A stretch of DNA of 64,000 nucleotides from Trichinella spiralis (GCF_000181795.1 NW_003526941.1:9048037-9112036); one strand, 5' to 3'; counted from the stretch's first letter, positions 38,389-45,555 are shown. Numbers and translations are program-made. The notes: generated by a model from the letters alone, not told the origin.

Positions 38389-41300
38389 TTAAATTTCTCT
38401 TCCTAATCGAGTAAGCTGAAAGAAAGAAGACACAAATGAGAAATGAATTTTCAATTTTGTTTTCAAACCTGGGAAAGAAACTGACACCCGTTGACAAGCT
38501 CTGTGCAACCGTAGATGATGCGACGGGATTTTCTATATTCGACCAGATTCTGGTATTCGGCGTACGTACCGCCACCAATCATAAACACTATGGTATCGTT
38601 GAAGGAAGTTTTGCTTTTCTGTTGTTGCCTGTCAAAAAAACCCTTTCTTTCAGATGAAGATGGTTCAGCAGATGAACAACAACAACAAACAAACAAACAT
38701 CAGTGCACTTCTTACCCCTGCGGTGCATATGCAACTGAAGTTTTGTACAACTTTGGATCGAATTGCAAATAACCGTCCACTTCTGGATTATTTTTCATCT
38801 CCATGATCGCGTCGACAATGCCAGTCAGAGGTAAGTTCTTGAAAAAACAATAAAATTGAAAAATACAAACAAACAAACAGTAAACAAAGCAAAGATATAC
38901 CCGTTTTGGAATGACCAAATTTTTCACTCCTTCCATGATAAACTGCGAGCTCTGGCTGAGTAACTTGCTGAACATGTTGACCGTTTTCATACCACCACCA
39001 GAATACTGATCCGAAGTAGCGTTCGAAGAAAACTGCCTGCACAAACAGACAAGCATGAAACTTAATTTCATTGTAAATATATTTATTTATTAATAAAGTT
39101 AAACTCACTTGACCCGTTTCAAATATTTGAACGCGGATACATCGCAGTCGATTGATTCCAACGCTTGCATCAACTGCCCAACTTCATTCTACAACAAAAA
39201 CCACACCAGCTTATTAAAAATATACATATATACACAGTGCAGAAAAAACCATTTCACACAACCTCTGACATGTCGGTGCATAAATATTTGATCAAAGCAA
39301 TGCGCATCTTGTCTTCGGCAGAGCCACATTCTACATCCTTGATCATGTCGATCACCGATCGTTCAGTAGCTTGTTTATTCATTATTTTCTCTTCAGCTTC
39401 GAAAAACACGTCCAACTTGCGACACTGAAAAATTAATACATCACAAATAAGCGAGCAAAATTTGAATGAGAAAAATCACCTTGATCTGTTCCAGAACAGC
39501 CGTAGCAATGTTGGTGTGCATGTCAATCAGACGCTTGTGTTCCAATAATTCCGGCAGAGATTTGACAGTGGAAGTCAGTTCAGCCGTGTTATCGGTCAAC
39601 AAAGAAATCGTCTCGTCGGTCTCGCCATCCAAACCCTGACTTGCGTATGCAAATTTCAAAACAAACAAACAAACAAGCAAAAACAATTACCATAGAATGT
39701 TTCAATTTACGAATATCTTCTTCTTTCGCGCGATAAGATTCAAGCTCTTCTTGTATTGCTTCGGCAACGGTTGGAAATGGACTGCAACAGTGAAATGGGA
39801 AAAAAAATTAATAAAACTGATGATGATGAACTTTAAAAATACATCATCATCCGTTTGCGAAACGTACTTTCCTTTCTGAGCAATCCAGAATTTGTCATTC
39901 ACATTGATGTCCAATTCTTTTGCTTTGTTCGCTGAATTAGCATCGAGTTTGACACGATTCAACTGAAAAGGCTGAACAAAAAAAAAGCGGAGCGTGGGAA
40001 AAGAGATGCATCAACAAATAAACAACTAGATTTCAAAAATTCTCACCAGAACTTCATTGATCAAAGCTTGATAGGTCCAAGTGTGATGCAACGGTGTGGT
40101 AAGGTCCAAACTGCGGTCGCAGATGATCAGCACTGGCCGTTGAAAGCTGTACAACGAGGATCGCAATCCTTCATCAGTGAACAAACTGTTACGCCCGTCG
40201 AGCAAGCTGTCTCGAATTTTGGTGTTCAATTTCTGCAAATAGTCGATGATGGAAAATTTAAATAAATTAATAAATAATTTCAACCCCGGCAACAAGTTCA
40301 GCGGCGTTGCCGCGTGGGCATCGTATATACGGCACGGCACCGAGCGTGACGCACACGGAAAACAGACCGTCCACAATTGCATTCACAATTTCTTCCATCG
40401 CACCGCTGTCCACTTGTGGTCTGTTTATCGCTGAATACCACGAACCATGTAAGCATAAGTGAATACCAATAAACACAACAATTTACCATAGAAAGATAAT
40501 GGATTTTCGTCAGTGTATTTTTTCAAAACAAACAGATCATCTTCGAGCGAGATAAACGATAAATACTGATCGAACACCTGAACAACAAACACTACAAACC
40601 AATCAACACTATTCATTATTGTTGAGTACTTTTTGAATTTGTGAAACTGAATTCGTCTCAACTGCTACAGTAGCTACATCTTCCAACAGAGGACGGCTGA
40701 GAGGAGATATGAAATTCAAATAATAACTTTCGTACATTCCTCCAGCAAGATCCTAGATGTTGAATTTTCTGAAAAAAAATAGAATACAAAGTCACCAACT
40801 CACTTTGCACAAAAGATCGATCGATTCTCTGATGGGCATGATAAAATAAATGCACGGTACTTCAGGAAGTGATTGCCGTTGACTGGACAACAATCTATAA
40901 TCAAATTTACCCAAATGTCAAAATACTACTTGAAATTCTTCATAAATACAAAATCTTCACAGTATTTCAAAGAAATTCATATGGAATATGCATCACTTTT
41001 AAACAAACCACAAAGTTCATTCAACTGAACAATATCATTAACACTATTGCAGCTTGCATTCTTTTAAATGCACTTATTGTTAATATATTCACCTGTGTTC
41101 ACATATGTTGTTCACAAATATGTAAAATGTAAAGCAAATCAAACTCATCATATCAACTACCTGTTGAACAACAACATGCTGCTTGATCTATTCTTTCTTC
41201 AAAATAAACAAGCTTGATTCAATTTAAAGAAACGAATGTTTCAATAATTTACAGAAAAATAAAATATTGCGTGCCAGAAACAAAAGAAAAGAAACATTTC

Positions 41301-41737
41301 CGTAGTATACTAATAAATTGCAAAGAATAAAGTTATTCATCATGCAGCTATTCAAACAGAACAGGTAGCTGATTTAACTTACAAGTGCAACGTTACACCA
41401 CATTCACGAAGCTCTTTCACACTAATCAGTGGCGACAAAATGTCCATTCCAGCCTTATCATAAATTAGCACTTTCCAGTATGGTTCATGAGCAACAGATT
41501 CAGTTAATGGACGATTGAAATTTAATATCTGTTTCAAAACACCTGTAACAATGAATCGTTTATAACAACATATGGATGTATAATTAAACATTCATAAATT
41601 GAATAAGCAGATCATATAAAATTGCGAGAGGAAAGAAAAACAGAACAAAAACTCAAAGTATACTTCGTGACAGTATAAAAACGTTTACCTAGCTGTTGAG
41701 AACGGAGTGTGGGTGTTTGCATCGTTGGCAAAGACAT
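38389..41737 (-). CDS. SCFD1: Sec1-family protein Sly1/SCFD1, multi-exon
   Basis: WKVLIYDKAGMDILSPLISVKELRECGVTLHL, FDQYLSFISLEDDLF, SFQRPVLIICDRSLDLTTPLHHTWTYQAL, LPELLEHKRLIDMHTNIAT, IVFMIGGGTYAEYQNL. Confidence 0.96.
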
Positions 41738-42213
41738 CTTGAATCAAAACTCGGAATACGAAATCAGTCGATAAACACCGCACGCCCTCCTGAAACCAAA
41801 AATGCAAAAAAACTTCTATTCTCATCGAACTGAATTTGAGCAAAACAAAAAAATTTGAAATATAATGTTCATAATTTGCTTGACAAACTTGTTATTATGA
41901 ATTCAGTCAAAAATGATTAAAAAATATTACACCCCACTTTTGAGTAAAATGGGAACCTGAAATTAATATATTCTTTTGCGAAAATTAAAAAATACAACAA
42001 CTTCCATACTTATCTACGAAGAAAAATAACTCATACAGTATTATGACACAAACTGTGACAAGACGACAAATGGCAGTCTCTGCTACAGTATACAGCAAAT
42101 ATCTTCAAAAAGACAGAAAGAAGAGCGGATAGTCAAGTTTTTATTCTTTACAGTACGTAATTAATACTAATTTTTAAAATTATATTTTAAAATTCAACAA
42201 TTTTTTTCAACAT

Positions 42214-43282
42214 TTATTTACTTCGAACAGCACGAATTTTTTCCTTATCAATTATTCGATCAATTTCTTTTTGTTTTTTAGAAAAATAATCTCGAAACCA
42301 AGCAATGTGTTCGTGCTTTCTTTGCACTGTCATGTACGGATTTGTCGATAAGCCCTGCACGACCAGTTCCATAAAGCGACGAACTGGACCATCTTTCGGG
42401 AAACCTTTCTCTAACAGTGGTTCCAAAAAAACATGCTCATAAAATGGATACTCTTTTTCAAACCAAAGGTATTCATTGTCAATCGGATACGGGAACATTT
42501 TCCCTTCCAACGTCCACTGGATCATCTCTTCAAAACCATTTCTCGGCAATGCAGTCGACCTAGCTGATAGTTGTTCCAATTTTTTCCACACTGGAAGAAG
42601 AGGCTTTTCAGTTGTCACTGGATCTTCCTTTTTTGTAAAAATGTTCAATCTTGCGCTTGAATTTTTCTCCAAATTCAACTTCCTAAGTGTATTCACAAAA
42701 GACTTTCGTGGAAAAATCATTCAAGCTCAAAAAACTTACTCCAACATGCCACTGCTTGGAAAAGAAAGTGACGATTGTCTGGTAAATCTTTCAGCTTTGC
42801 GGTATGGCACGTTGCTCTTTGTTGGAGATTCGTCGAAAGTCATTTTGGAAAATAGCTTCTCCAACTGTTCAAATGGCACTGATTTTGGCTGCGATGCTAC
42901 ATTTCCCTCGTGTAATTTATTGTATATTTCCGATTTTGTCTTTTCCACGTCACCACCGAAATTAGATGCAACATCTTCAACTGCATATTCGACAGCGGTT
43001 TTCTTAATCTTCTCCACTGGCTTCTTAGTCTTACCGGGAGTGGATAATTTGAAGCCGATACGTTTTGTACTTTTCTGAGCCAATTCCATGTTATTCAACA
43101 GTTCGCGCAGCAGTTCATTAGTTGATTGCTTTTTGTCACAGAAACCTAATCTTTTAATATTTATTTACATTCAAAGTGACATGACAAATATACAACTACT
43201 TACATCGCGTATAATTCAAATGAGAACAATGCAAAATTGGAGATAGGATTCTTTTTGTGTGAAACCAAAGTTGTTTTGCCAT
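42214..43282 (-). CDS. MRPS31: Mitochondrial ribosomal protein S31 (mS31), 3 exons
   Basis: C-terminal NGFEEMIQWTLEGKMFPYPIDNE...FYEHVFLE...FPKDGPVRRFMELVVQGLSTNPY...KHEHIAWFRDYF. Confidence 0.92.
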
Positions 43283-43587
43283 TCACTTAAAATCACGTAT
43301 CACACATTACACAAATTGAAAAGTATTTCGCTTAATATATTTAAATTTTAACAATTCACGTTAACAATTACACAAACTACAGTAACGAAAAAATCAAGAC
43401 CCGACCAATTTGATTTATTATTTTTGAAAATTTAATTTACTTAAAACATTATACTACAATTTTCTTTTTATAATTTTTACTTTCACTTCTGTTTCTATTG
43501 AAATATATAACTTTCGAACAATACATTGCACTGATATGTTTATTTGTTTTAATCACTGTAATACAGTATAAAAAAAAGTAAACGCGT

Positions 43588-44454
43588 TCATAATTTCACA
43601 GCATACAAAGCGTAATTGACGTTGATGTTCTTTGTCCAGTACCATTTGTTTTGCAGTGGATTGTACATCAAACCATTAATCATTCTTACGGAACAACCTC
43701 GACGTTCTAAGTTCACTTGCAAATCTTGAGGAGAGAAAAATTTGTTCCACTCATGAATACCTTTCGGTACAAGACGCAAAACGTTCTCAGCCACAAAAAT
43801 GGCAAATATCTTCGACCAAATTGTCTTATTAATAGTTGTAAAAAACAGCAGACCTCCGGAACGAACTAAATCAACGCAGTGATTGATGAACAGAGTCTGA
43901 TCGTTGACGTGCTCGATAATTTCCGATGCAACAATAGCGTCGAACGATGATTCACCGACACTTTGTGCAACAGATTCAACATCGCACACAAAATATTTCA
44001 AATTTTCCCCTAAACCAGCCAATCGTTGATGCTCTTTAGCCAAAGCTATTCCTTCAGAGTTGGCATCGATACCGACAACCGTTGCACCCAGCCGAGCTAA
44101 ACTTTCACTCATAATACCAGCCCCACAACCAACGTCCAGAATTTTAACACCATTCAACGGCTTATAGCCAAAAAACGTATTAATATTTGATGAAGCTTTG
44201 CCAAACTGCAAAACTACAGTATCTTTTATCCACGGCACACGAACCGAGTTGAATGAATGCAACAATTTCATGGGACCCTGTTCGTCCCACCAAGTTTGGC
44301 TGAGATTTGAAAATCGCTTAATTTCTTCATTATCAACAGTTGAGTTCATTGTCGAATTACTAAAGTACGAAGGAAAAAACGCTGTAAACTTACGTAGAAA
44401 AGAAACAGACAAAAAGGTTGAAGCTGCAGAGGTCAACTTATGCACAAGAAGCAT
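43588..44454 (-). CDS. COQ3: Ubiquinone biosynthesis O-methyltransferase, single exon
   Basis: STVDNEEIKRF...WWDEQGPMKLLHSFNSVR, ILDVGCGAG, SEIIEHV, TTINKT, VPKGIHEWNKF; the N-terminal 35 aa lack acidic residues, like a mitochondrial presequence. Confidence 0.95.
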   Translation of the reverse strand: MLLVHKLTSAASTFLSVSFLRKFTAFFPSYFSNSTMNSTVDNEEIKRFSNLSQTWWDEQGPMKLLHSFNSVRVPWIKDTVVLQFGKASSNINTFFGYKPLNGVKILDVGCGAGIMSESLARLGATVVGIDANSEGIALAKEHQRLAGLGENLKYFVCDVESVAQSVGESSFDAIVASEIIEHVNDQTLFINHCVDLVRSGGLLFFTTINKTIWSKIFAIFVAENVLRLVPKGIHEWNKFFSPQDLQVNLERRGCSVRMINGLMYNPLQNKWYWTKNINVNYALYAVKL

Positions 44455-44901
44455 TATTCTCTGCCAACAAGAAAACGTGAAAGAAAATCTGTAGGCTTCT
44501 TTTCGACGTGATCTTCAAATAAAGTGTTCAACAACACGTTTCCAGGTGTCCAAGCTTCTTTCAAATTTTTCAGCTCCACTTCCGCTTTATTTGTCAGAAT
44601 ATCCACAGCCCGAATATCTCGAATTTCAGCGTTTCGGACAAACTGTCGCTTAATGGCGTCTCGCAACACGTCTTCTCGAAGATGCAATTGATAAAGGAAA
44701 TTCAGTGTTGGAACAAATTTCATCCTTAACAAAAATAACAATGTACACTTTTGATATCATTACAATTACTGATATTCAAATGTACCAATCTTTATAAACA
44801 CGCAATACACGCTTACGAGCCTCTTCAGGGTTACGAGACACTATTGGTTTAATCTGCTTCTTGAAAATTTGCCCACCAGAGCAAAAATGACGAATGCGCA
44901 T
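44454..44901 (-). CDS. NDUFA6: Complex I accessory subunit B14 (LYR family); exons 44901-44786 and 44724-44454
   Basis: KQIKPIVSRNPEEARKRVLRVYKDWMKFVP...IKRQFVRNAEIRDIRAVDIL...KKPTDFLSRFLVGRE matches the NDUFA6 pattern. Confidence 0.92.
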
Positions 44902-44903
44902 AA

Positions 44904-45256
44904 TCAATTTAACGTATCGCTTTTGGTCACCTAAAACAGTATAGCTAAAATGCAAAAGAAAAAAGTAATTGAAAACAACTAATTGATAATACGTTTGCTT
45001 CTAAATATTCAATTTTCTTCTCCAAAGAATTAAGTCGTTCGTTTACCAAATTTATTTTATACTTGCAAGATAACTCTAAATTTTTAAATTTGCATATTAT
45101 AATTAAAAAACAAAAGTCCAAACCAAAATTGCAAAGAAAATCAGAGATCTTTTTGACGTTGTGAGATATCAATGCTGCAATATCACGATTGTCCCAGTCT
45201 TCTTGTAATTCAAGTTTAACATCAGATTGGGAATGCTTTTGAGGTTGATAACTCAT
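44904..45256 (-). CDS. BRK1: BRICK1/HSPC300 subunit of the WAVE complex; exons 45256-45124, 45075-44993, 44930-44904
   Basis: LQEDWDNRDIAALISHNVKKISDFLCNF/ELSCKYKINLVNERLNSLEKKIEYLEAN/VTKSDTLN-stop; the C-terminus parallels the human VTKGETLT. Confidence 0.92.
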
Positions 45257-45555
45257 CAAATATAAGATAAATCACGCTTTGAGTCACATGGGAAAAATCT
45301 TACTGTATTACAGTGTACTAAAATAGTTTAATTAGCCTTATCTAGCACACATTTTTTTAATCATAAAAATAAAACATTAAAAATTTACTTAAGAAATGTA
45401 AATTAAAAAATATATTTGTAAATTACATTTTTGGAATTTTTATTTTTAAAGTTTTGGGAAAACCTTATTTGTACTTGATCTTCAATAATACTTTTGGCCA
45501 ACTCACGCAGCTAACAGTTTTAACATTTTGATCAATTTGTTGCGTCACCTATAAA
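45257..45555. promoter_or_regulatory. Putative bidirectional promoter between the BRK1 cluster (-) and RPL10A (+)
   Basis: Start codons are divergent and about 300 nt apart; inferred from geometry only. Confidence 0.5.

What the first reader, a model, noticed from the sequence alone, without database searches (positions are those of the whole stretch)
43588..45256. Three unrelated genes (BRK1 > NDUFA6 > COQ3) abut stop-to-start with +2 nt and -1 nt (TAATG) spacing: an operon with no intercistronic space
Seen: on the minus strand BRK1 ends ...AAT TGA (44906-44904), followed by TT and the NDUFA6 ATG (44901). NDUFA6 ends GAA TAA (44456-44454), and the last A of that stop is the A of the COQ3 ATG. 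Known: nematode operons normally have intercistronic regions of roughly 100 nt or more, holding a 3' UTR, a poly(A) site and an SL trans-splice site. TAATG overlaps are typical of bacterial translational coupling and viral termination-reinitiation. Inference: two such junctions in a row are unlikely to be chance. Either a mature polycistronic mRNA is translated by reinitiation or leaky scanning, or overlapping mRNAs are made by mutually exclusive trans-splicing, with each CDS doubling as its neighbour's UTR or outron. The COQ3 N-terminus from this ATG looks like a mitochondrial presequence, which supports it as the real start. An AATAAA follows COQ3 at 43544-43539.
Basis: partly seen in the sequence, partly recalled or inferred. 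Interest (0 to 1): 0.88.

Follow-up and report, generated by a model that had tools for sequence, protein, structure and literature searches.

The report
Gapless three-gene worm operon, likely polycistronic
In a Trichinella roundworm, three unrelated housekeeping genes sit stop-to-start with no room for normal operon processing, and the first two carry almost no internal start codons, which suggests that one messenger RNA likely makes two or all three proteins by ribosomes scanning past the earlier starts; no RNA data could be checked.

Summary
BRK1, NDUFA6 and COQ3 are intact genes of a Trichinella species, joined at +2 nt and -1 nt (TAATG). Mis-fused annotations imply the same spacing in other Trichinella, so it is not an assembly error. 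They also show the gene order in Trichuris, Soboliphyme and Panagrellus; C. elegans gene names point the same way. An unnamed, probably nematode contig keeps a 115-nt NDUFA6-COQ3 gap, so the overlap is not universal.

New here: the spliced BRK1+NDUFA6 coding sequence has 2 internal ATGs against 12.8 expected (P 3e-4; the most depleted of 64 triplets). Five control genes show no depletion. This is the published signature of leaky-scanning polycistronic mRNA. It is not required by trans-splicing or by reinitiation.

Against: a good splice acceptor lies 6 nt before the COQ3 ATG, and BRK1's last intron offers one for NDUFA6, so overlapping trans-spliced mRNAs remain a serious rival. No TURBS motif precedes either junction. 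The 'downstream Met' escape is unlikely.

No RNA data could be obtained, so the mechanism is inferred: scanning 0.5, trans-splicing 0.33, reinitiation 0.1.

The parts
44904..45256 (-). BRK1/BRICK1 (HSPC300) gene, 3 exons, 80 aa; no internal Met, one out-of-frame ATG at 45222
44931..44992 (-). BRK1 intron 2 (62 nt, T-rich); acceptor at 44931 (score 5.4), tandem acceptor at 44945 (4.0), TAYYTT at 44967; candidate trans-splice site for NDUFA6
44902..44903 (-). 2-nt spacer between the BRK1 stop and the NDUFA6 start
44454..44901 (-). NDUFA6 (complex I B14, LYR protein) gene, 2 exons, 128 aa; no out-of-frame ATG, one internal Met (residue 40, at the start of exon 2)
44586..44591 (-). AATAAA inside NDUFA6 exon 2, 130 nt upstream of the candidate COQ3 acceptor; a possible poly(A) signal, untested
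44461..44480 (-). acceptor-like pyrimidine tract plus CAG in the last NDUFA6 codons, 6 nt before the COQ3 ATG (score 3.2, the median of real acceptors)
44452..44456 (-). TAATG stop-start overlap (NDUFA6 stop / COQ3 start)
43588..44454 (-). COQ3 ubiquinone O-methyltransferase, single exon, 288 aa, presequence-like first 35 residues
43539..43544 (-). AATAAA after COQ3, the first AATAAA outside coding sequence downstream of the BRK1 start
42214..43282 (-). MRPS31, next same-strand gene, about 305 nt after the COQ3 stop (start codon inferred)
38389..41722 (-). SCFD1 (Sec1-family) gene, next same-strand gene, with a strong acceptor at 41790 (ends approximate)
45257..45555 (.). 299-nt AT-rich gap between BRK1 and a divergent RPL10A-like gene (named by eye); presumed shared promoter; no strong acceptor just upstream of the BRK1 ATG

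Best explanation
BRK1, NDUFA6 and COQ3 are three intact genes with no intercistronic space, and they are likely expressed, at least in part, as one spliced mRNA predicted to end at the poly(A) signal after COQ3, from which ribosomes would reach the second and third ORFs by leaky scanning. Shown: gene structures, spacing, ATG depletion, old gene order. Inferred steps: (1) transcription starts in the ~300-nt gap shared with RPL10A; (2) the three introns are cis-spliced and the RNA is cleaved only after 43539; (3) some 40S subunits initiate at the BRK1 ATG (T at -3), most of the rest at NDUFA6 (A at -3), and a small remainder passes only two further ATGs in the whole 631 nt and starts COQ3; (4) the purge of internal ATGs is the trace of selection for this, and once scanning did the job the spacers could shrink to nothing. 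The tiny spacings would then be a consequence, not the mechanism. Trans-splicing at 44931 or 44461 may add monocistronic or dicistronic forms. I put about 0.65 on at least one junction being read from a mature multi-ORF mRNA, and about 0.35 on all three proteins coming from one mRNA.
For: Internal ATGs in spliced BRK1+NDUFA6 CDS: 2 in 618 nt against 12.8 expected from 5,166 nt of control CDS, Poisson P 2.6e-4. Out-of-frame only, with the proteins held fixed by synonymous recoding: 1 against 5.7, P 0.003. None of 5 control genes (SCFD1, MRPS31, RPL10A, NAE1, COQ3) is depleted, P 0.13-0.81. ATG is the most depleted of 64 triplets; control 618-nt windows hold 6-19. The depletion is spread over all three segments: BRK1 1 vs 4.9, NDUFA6 exon 1 0 vs 2.3, exon 2 1 vs 5.6. 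Acceptors next to the downstream ATGs would not require that. The same signature marks algal leaky-scanning bicistrons (obs/exp 0.43-0.49 before ORF2; here 0.16; 10.1101/2024.07.24.605010, section read). BRK1 cores lack Met in 5 of 6 distinct nematode or nematode-like proteins against 1 of 12 unnamed others. There is no non-coding space for a poly(A) site; T. spiralis intercistronic regions are 74-213 nt (PMC7668243). Only 19-31% of T. spiralis genes are trans-spliced. The C. elegans ids Y57G11C.11 and .12 occur in none of that paper's predicted-operon tables, which is weak evidence.
Against: No RNA, ribosome or protein data. Each gene alone is only weakly depleted (out-of-frame P 0.16 for BRK1, 0.014 for NDUFA6), and the controls are five genes of one window. 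An acceptor-like site lies 6 nt before the COQ3 ATG: best of 25 exonic AGs in NDUFA6, P 0.04 against synonymous recoding, and only 4 of 254 control exonic AGs score as high. An in-CDS AATAAA lies 130 nt upstream of it, at a normal intercistronic distance. The 'weak BRK1 start' argument is thin: 2 of 4 neighbouring control starts also have T at -3 (and the SCFD1 start read from its output). NDUFA6 has A at -3, which should limit read-past. The Met-free nematode BRK1 could be one ancestral change, and T. muris BRK1 has a Met. Trichuris NDUFA6 has 2-3 internal Met.
Confidence: 0.5

Rival explanations
1. Overlapping mRNAs made by alternative cis/trans splicing. NDUFA6 mRNA gets a spliced leader at BRK1's last-intron acceptor (44931 or 44945). 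COQ3 mRNA gets one at the CAG inside NDUFA6's last codons (44461), or at NDUFA6's intron acceptor (44725). Each upstream gene uses the next CDS as its 3' UTR, ending at in-CDS signals (AATAAA 44591, AATGAA 44350/44331) or at 43544. Only the first ORF of each mRNA is translated.
For: 44931 scores 5.4 (above 18 of 22 real acceptors), 44945 scores 4.0, and no ATG lies between them and the NDUFA6 start. 44461 scores 3.2 (above 11 of 22), P 0.04 against synonymous recoding. The Q-R-I-M reading in T. zimbabwensis is compatible with the same CAG. TAYYTT lies 36 nt before 44931. Trichinella has SL2-type trans-splicing and operons (PMC7668243). Operons with no intercistronic region exist in Ciona and as C. 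elegans SL1-type operons (PMC7986045; 10.1101/642082).
Against: It does not predict ATG loss across BRK1 and both NDUFA6 exons. 44931 must be a good acceptor anyway, as BRK1's cis site. The T-rich tract before 44461 encodes the conserved D-F-L-S-x-F tail, and one AG that good among 25 is expected about 0.4 times at the control rate. No TAYYTT lies within 100 nt before 44461, and the motif is very common in this genome (407,711 copies). AATAAA/AATGAA also occur 3 and 9 times in 5.2 kb of control CDS. The acceptor model rests on 22 introns, not on trans-splice sites.
Confidence: 0.33
2. Coupled termination-reinitiation is the main route: ribosomes finishing BRK1 restart 2 nt later on NDUFA6, and those finishing NDUFA6 slip back one base at TAATG to start COQ3.
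For: Both spacings fit the coupled stop-start geometry described for viral and a few cellular mRNAs, including UAAUG (PMC5972666, passages). The spacing is kept across Trichinella. Some cellular cases lack TURBS.
Against: UGGGA occurs only at 45196 and 44289, not just upstream of either stop. Reinitiation does not need an ATG-poor upstream ORF. L023 has the same gene pair 115 nt apart. The one cellular case quantified in the passages read gave about 82-fold less downstream protein, which is hard to square with NDUFA6, a stoichiometric complex I subunit (own knowledge).
Confidence: 0.1
3. Fusion proteins by alternative splicing, as public gene models assume. Skipping BRK1 exon 2 (83 nt) puts exon 1 in frame with NDUFA6 (182 aa), and cryptic introns join NDUFA6 to COQ3.
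For: The exon-2 skip is open through to the NDUFA6 stop in the window and is the T. nativa model.
Against: The fused models use different junctions in different species, as ab initio artefacts do. The NDUFA6-COQ3 fusions delete the COQ3 presequence or the NDUFA6 tail. Off-frame differences are silent in the BRK1 and NDUFA6 frames. The three proteins work in different complexes.
Confidence: 0.04
4. An ordinary operon misread: COQ3 starts at Met36 (44349) after trans-splicing at the TTTAG at 44360, leaving a ~100-nt gap.
For: Met36 has A at -3, is kept in 5 of 6 Trichinella models, and the gap would be of normal size.
Against: Met36 is Lys in the T. nativa model (a draft, so it could be an error). 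The acceptor scores -1.3 (above 3 of 22). The 35 upstream codons stay open and colinear in T. zimbabwensis. The L023 orthologue has a similar N-terminal extension with no Met there. This reading does nothing for the BRK1-NDUFA6 junction.
Confidence: 0.03

Closest known systems
Leaky-scanning bicistronic nuclear mRNAs of green algae (10.1101/2024.07.24.605010; passages and section 8 read)
   Same: Short upstream ORF, unrelated partners, ATG depletion before the downstream ORF; some loci there have overlapping stop and start codons.
   Different: Here the host is an animal with SL trans-splicing and there are three ORFs; the mRNA and its translation are not demonstrated.
Nematode SL2-type operons of T. 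spiralis and C. elegans (PMC7668243; passages and Tables S3, S6)
   Same: Same-strand cluster of unrelated housekeeping genes; the later MRPS31 and SCFD1 genes have spacers with poly(A)-like signals.
   Different: The first two junctions have +2 and -1 nt between coding sequences instead of a 74-213 nt intercistronic region plus UTRs; the cluster is not among the 45 benchmark operons.
C. elegans SL1-type operons and Ciona operons without intercistronic region (PMC7986045, 10.1101/642082; passages); C. elegans dicistronic-mRNA and shared-exon clusters (Blumenthal 2015 WormBook, recalled, not held)
   Same: No space between cistrons; an acceptor inside or at the end of the upstream gene can serve the downstream gene.
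   Different: There the poly(A) site meets the trans-splice site and a 3' UTR still exists. Here the coding sequences themselves touch, twice in a row, so a 3' UTR must be the next gene's CDS.
C. elegans nuo-3 locus (Y57G11C.12 NDUFA6; Y57G11C.1147 HSPC300; coq-3 neighbour recalled)
   Same: NUO-3 is listed as the fifth WAVE-complex subunit (PMC3521709) although nuo-3 is NDUFA6 (PMC11761250; PMC2719872), and HSPC300 carries a Y57G11C id. This suggests the same BRK1-NDUFA6 linkage.
Coupled termination-reinitiation at UAAUG (influenza B segment 7, caliciviruses, SART1; PMC5972666, passages)
   Same: TAATG overlap and near-zero spacing.
   Different: No TURBS core upstream of either junction; ATG depletion points to scanning instead.
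Drosophila dicistronic mRNAs (stoned, Adh-Adhr; PMC2776167, passages)
   Same: Animal mature mRNAs carrying two full ORFs.
   Different: Two ORFs, in an animal without trans-splicing; here three unrelated genes from an old nematode cluster.

Membership tests
Leaky-scanning polycistronic nuclear mRNA | ATG depletion upstream of the downstream ORF | tested here: met
   2 vs 12.8 (P 2.6e-4); out-of-frame 1 vs 5.7 (P 0.003); 0 of 5 controls depleted
Leaky-scanning polycistronic nuclear mRNA | short upstream ORF(s) | tested here: met
   243 and 387 nt
Leaky-scanning polycistronic nuclear mRNA | upstream start context weaker than downstream | tested here: inconclusive
   BRK1 T at -3, NDUFA6 and COQ3 A at -3, but 2 of 4 control starts also have T; no Trichinella context model
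Leaky-scanning polycistronic nuclear mRNA | one mature polyadenylated mRNA holds the ORFs and all are translated from it | not testable with these tools
SL2-type nematode operon junction | non-coding intercistronic region of ~50-200 nt between poly(A) site and acceptor | tested here: not met
   +2 and -1 nt between CDSs; only in-CDS signals could serve
SL2-type nematode operon junction | trans-splice acceptor upstream of the downstream ATG | tested here: met
   candidates 44931/44945 and 44461 score like real acceptors; their use is not shown
SL2-type nematode operon junction | Ur motif (TAYYTT) within 100 nt upstream of the acceptor | tested here: inconclusive
   present before 44931, absent before 44461; motif is common and seen at only 48-65% of downstream genes
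SL2-type nematode operon junction | SL2-type leader on the downstream mRNA | not testable with these tools
   no reads; Y57G11C.11 and .12 absent from published predicted-operon tables, weak
SL1-type / shared-exon / dicistronic clusters | same site used for cis or trans splicing, or poly(A) site abutting the acceptor | not testable with these tools
   anatomy allows it at 44931; definitions partly recalled
TURBS-type termination-reinitiation | stop and start overlapping or within a few nt | tested here: met
TURBS-type termination-reinitiation | UGGGA core shortly upstream of the stop-start site | tested here: not met
   only at 45196 and 44289

The most novel reading that the evidence does not exclude
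Trichinella makes a mature tricistronic mRNA from which an actin-regulator subunit, a complex I subunit and a ubiquinone enzyme are all translated by leaky scanning. An ancient nematode operon has switched from RNA-level resolution by trans-splicing to ribosome-level resolution and lost its spacers, and the BRK1-NDUFA6 half may be an unrecognised bicistron across nematodes, including the C. elegans nuo-3 locus.
Probability: 0.35. Interest if true: 0.82.

Novelty: new variant of a known kind. Interest (0 to 1): 0.64.

Why it matters
Nematode operons are taken to be resolved into single-gene mRNAs before translation. A locus where three full housekeeping proteins come from one mRNA would show a second way out of an operon in animals. 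It would also give a tractable case of how intercistronic signals are lost. Even under the rival, coding sequence would double as acceptor, outron and 3' UTR at two successive junctions. Practically, many public nematode gene models fuse these genes (P0002, P0004, P0008, P0123-P0128, P0135, P0150). If the linkage holds in C. elegans, RNAi or alleles of nuo-3 may hit BRK1 as well as NDUFA6, which could explain why NUO-3 appears in print both as a complex I and as a WAVE-complex subunit. The ATG-depletion test gives a cheap genome-wide screen for further cases.

Tried and rejected
No assembly is held for this window, so there was no genome-wide scan for tight gene pairs. No RNA evidence could be obtained, so leader sites, poly(A) sites and multi-ORF mRNAs are untested.

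Pfam did not recognise the unspliced BRK1/NDUFA6 pieces; PDB sequence search did.

Metagenome scan with a 13-sequence nematode-type NDUFA6 alignment: 31 loci, 1 of 31 with COQ3 adjacent (L023), 0 of 31 with BRK1. Most loci look non-nematode.

Literature: searches for nuo-3+coq-3+operon (0 papers), nuo-3+HSPC300, three of six locus names (1 review without an operon statement), locus ids (7 listed), dicistronic/operon terms, reinitiation terms and bicistronic+gene names found no description of this arrangement. PMC3437764 and the 2015 WormBook chapter are not held, and most subscription papers are outside the library. Supplement file 12 of PMC7668243 was unreadable. bioRxiv supplements were closed.

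The protein atlas did not answer. Earlier scan notes had nothing on this locus.

Rejected: assembly artefact, downstream-Met start, functional fusion protein, TURBS. The Fisher test on Met-free BRK1 counted a duplicate core and ignores relatedness, so I do not rely on its P value. No structure or complex prediction was run, as it would not bear on the question.

Full report
1. Observation. The minus strand carries three intact genes at the stated coordinates. BRK1 (45256-44904; three exons; 80 aa) matches BRICK1 in the PDB. NDUFA6 (44901-44454; two exons; 128 aa) matches T. pseudospiralis NDUFA6 at 97% over exon 2, and a fused model containing it matches PDB NDUFA6. COQ3 (44454-43588; one exon; 288 aa) is a methyltransferase, 93-97% identical to Trichinella COQ3 models. 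The BRK1 stop is 2 nt before the NDUFA6 ATG, the NDUFA6 stop shares a base with the COQ3 ATG, and AATAAA lies at 43544. The organism is therefore a Trichinella species. Downstream on the same strand lie MRPS31 and SCFD1 with ordinary-sized spacers. Upstream, an RPL10A-like gene (named by eye) starts 299 nt away on the other strand.

2. Is it real and conserved? I had no DNA from other Trichinella, but gene finders there fused these genes, and the fused proteins read through the junctions. All 6 fused models checked (T. pseudospiralis x2, T. nativa, T. nelsoni x2, T. zimbabwensis) have L-I-M entering NDUFA6. The T. zimbabwensis model reads the COQ3 frame across the NDUFA6 tail in the window's register. 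The three off-frame differences tested are all reachable by changes silent in the upstream gene's real frame. So both spacings are very likely shared, and the upstream frames are the ones under selection.

Gene order is older still. BRK1+NDUFA6 are fused in models from Trichuris muris, Panagrellus redivivus and KAI6236188.1 (organism name cut off in the output; its locus name also mentions a methyltransferase domain). NDUFA6+COQ3 are fused in Soboliphyme baturini. For C. elegans, one paper lists NUO-3 as a WAVE-complex subunit (PMC3521709, passages), others give nuo-3 or Y57G11C.12 as NDUFA6 (PMC11761250; PMC2719872), and another gives HSPC300 as Y57G11C.1147 (10.1101/2022.11.29.518248, passage). 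That coq-3 is Y57G11C.11 in an operon with nuo-3 is recalled.

Two results limit this. Metagenome locus L023 has the NDUFA6 tail followed 115 nt later by an intronless COQ3. Its COQ3 falls with nematode sequences in a weakly supported group (87/92, drawn open), and I cannot tell whether it is genomic or a transcript. Locus L011, a nematode-like NDUFA6 gene, has neither neighbour in 3,756 nt. Of 31 loci, 1 had COQ3 and 0 had BRK1. So the order is old but not universal, and the -1 overlap is plausibly a derived contraction (one comparison only).

3. The COQ3 start. Residues 1-35 have no acidic residue, 3 K/R and 11 S/T. They differ from T. zimbabwensis at 5 of 35 positions against 14 of 253 for the rest, without indels. 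Met36 is Lys in 1 of 6 models. The TTTAG before it scores -1.3.

4. Test for trans-splicing. I built an acceptor matrix from 22 introns of the window, leaving BRK1 intron 2 out (leave-one-out median 2.9). BRK1's last acceptor (44931) scores 5.4, and a tandem site (44945) 4.0. Either would give an ATG-free leader to NDUFA6. A CAG 6 nt before the COQ3 ATG (44461) scores 3.2, the best of 25 exonic AGs in NDUFA6. Synonymous recoding of the last 14 codons reaches that score in 4% of trials, and 4 of 254 control exonic AGs do. An AATAAA lies 130 nt upstream in the NDUFA6 CDS, and AATGAA at 44350 and 44331 in COQ3. Such hexamers also occur in control CDS (3 and 9 in 5.2 kb). TAYYTT precedes 44931 but not 44461. 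The parts for overlapping trans-spliced mRNAs are thus present, but none is strong evidence. The cluster is not among the 45 benchmark T. spiralis operons. The ids Y57G11C.11 and .12 occur nowhere in the searchable supplements; fused gene models could hide them.

5. Test for scanning. Between the BRK1 and COQ3 start codons, the spliced message has only the NDUFA6 start and two other ATGs. That is 2 internal ATGs in 618 nt against 12.8 at the control rate (107 in 5,166 nt; P 2.6e-4). With the proteins fixed and codons redrawn, out-of-frame ATGs are 1 against 5.7 (P 0.003; BRK1 alone 0.16, NDUFA6 alone 0.014). The five control genes give P 0.13-0.81. ATG is the most depleted of 64 triplets (0.018 after multiplying by 64), and no control window of that length has fewer than 6. 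All three segments contribute. In green algae this depletion marks bicistronic mRNAs, and adding an ATG upstream lowers ORF2 output (10.1101/2024.07.24.605010, passages and section 8). BRK1 cores are Met-free in 5 of 6 distinct nematode or nematode-like proteins (one duplicate core and one unparsed row dropped) against 1 of 12 unnamed others. Among 35 full-length NDUFA6 homologues, 6 have a single internal Met, 4 of them nematode-like, but Trichuris has 2-3. Start contexts are only suggestive. Controls come from exon blocks of five genes in one window, with one SCFD1 block dropped for lack of an open frame.

6. Test for reinitiation. The geometry fits (PMC5972666, passages), but there is no UGGGA near either stop, the pair exists 115 nt apart in L023, and ATG loss is unexplained by it.

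7. Mechanism. I commit to leaky scanning of a mature multi-ORF mRNA (0.5), with overlapping trans-spliced mRNAs as the main rival (0.33), reinitiation 0.10, fusion 0.04 and the ordinary-gap reading 0.03. The routes can coexist. Shown: anatomy, ATG depletion, candidate acceptors, fused models in other species. Inferred: transcript ends, leader use, translation. An intronless last ORF and a plausible abundance order (much NDUFA6, little COQ3; own knowledge) fit scanning but were not tested.

8. Novelty. Polycistronic mRNA by leaky scanning is known in algae, dicistronic mRNAs in Drosophila (PMC2776167, passages), and spacer-less operons in Ciona and C. elegans. C. elegans dicistronic and shared-exon clusters are recalled from a chapter I could not open, which may already list the nuo-3 locus. 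My ten searches found no description of this cluster or of a scanning-decoded nematode polycistron, but the library lacks most subscription papers. I file it as a new variant of a known kind, interest 0.64. Earlier scan notes held nothing on this locus. Three report the same ATG signature in fungi or a red alga; I saw them after my analysis and did not check them.

Noticed in passing
window 45289-45284 (-): A start-stop element (ATG directly followed by TGA) lies 33 nt upstream of the BRK1 ATG, and no strong acceptor lies between it and BRK1; whether it is in the mRNA depends on the unknown start site.
   Followed up: partly
window 45075-44993 (-): Skipping BRK1 exon 2 (83 nt) gives an open 182-aa BRK1-NDUFA6 fusion; the tandem acceptor at 44945 gives a 77-aa BRK1 with another tail; BRK1 intron 1 (48 nt) is in frame and stop-free.
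   Followed up: partly
window 44454-43588 (-); L023:181-1044: COQ3 has no intron here, although neighbouring genes are intron-rich (SCFD1 has at least 12 by spliced alignment); the L023 orthologue is also uninterrupted.
   Followed up: no
window 42216-42187 (-): The MRPS31 stop is directly followed by an ATG opening an 8-codon ORF, a reminder that stop-ATG adjacency alone arises by chance in this AT-rich DNA (read).
   Followed up: no
L011:1390-1629: A nematode-like NDUFA6 gene lies head-to-head with an RPL5-like gene (named by eye) about 240 nt away, with no BRK1 between; the window's cluster is head-to-head with RPL10A.
   Followed up: partly
P0003 residues 1-4: T. zimbabwensis COQ3 has a second in-frame Met at residue 4 where the window has Val, a possible backup start.
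   Followed up: no
window 43282-38389 (-): Public models of T. nelsoni, T. zimbabwensis and T. pseudospiralis fuse NDUFA6, COQ3, MRPS31 and SCFD1 into one 1,200-aa protein, so the downstream gene order is shared too.
   Followed up: partly
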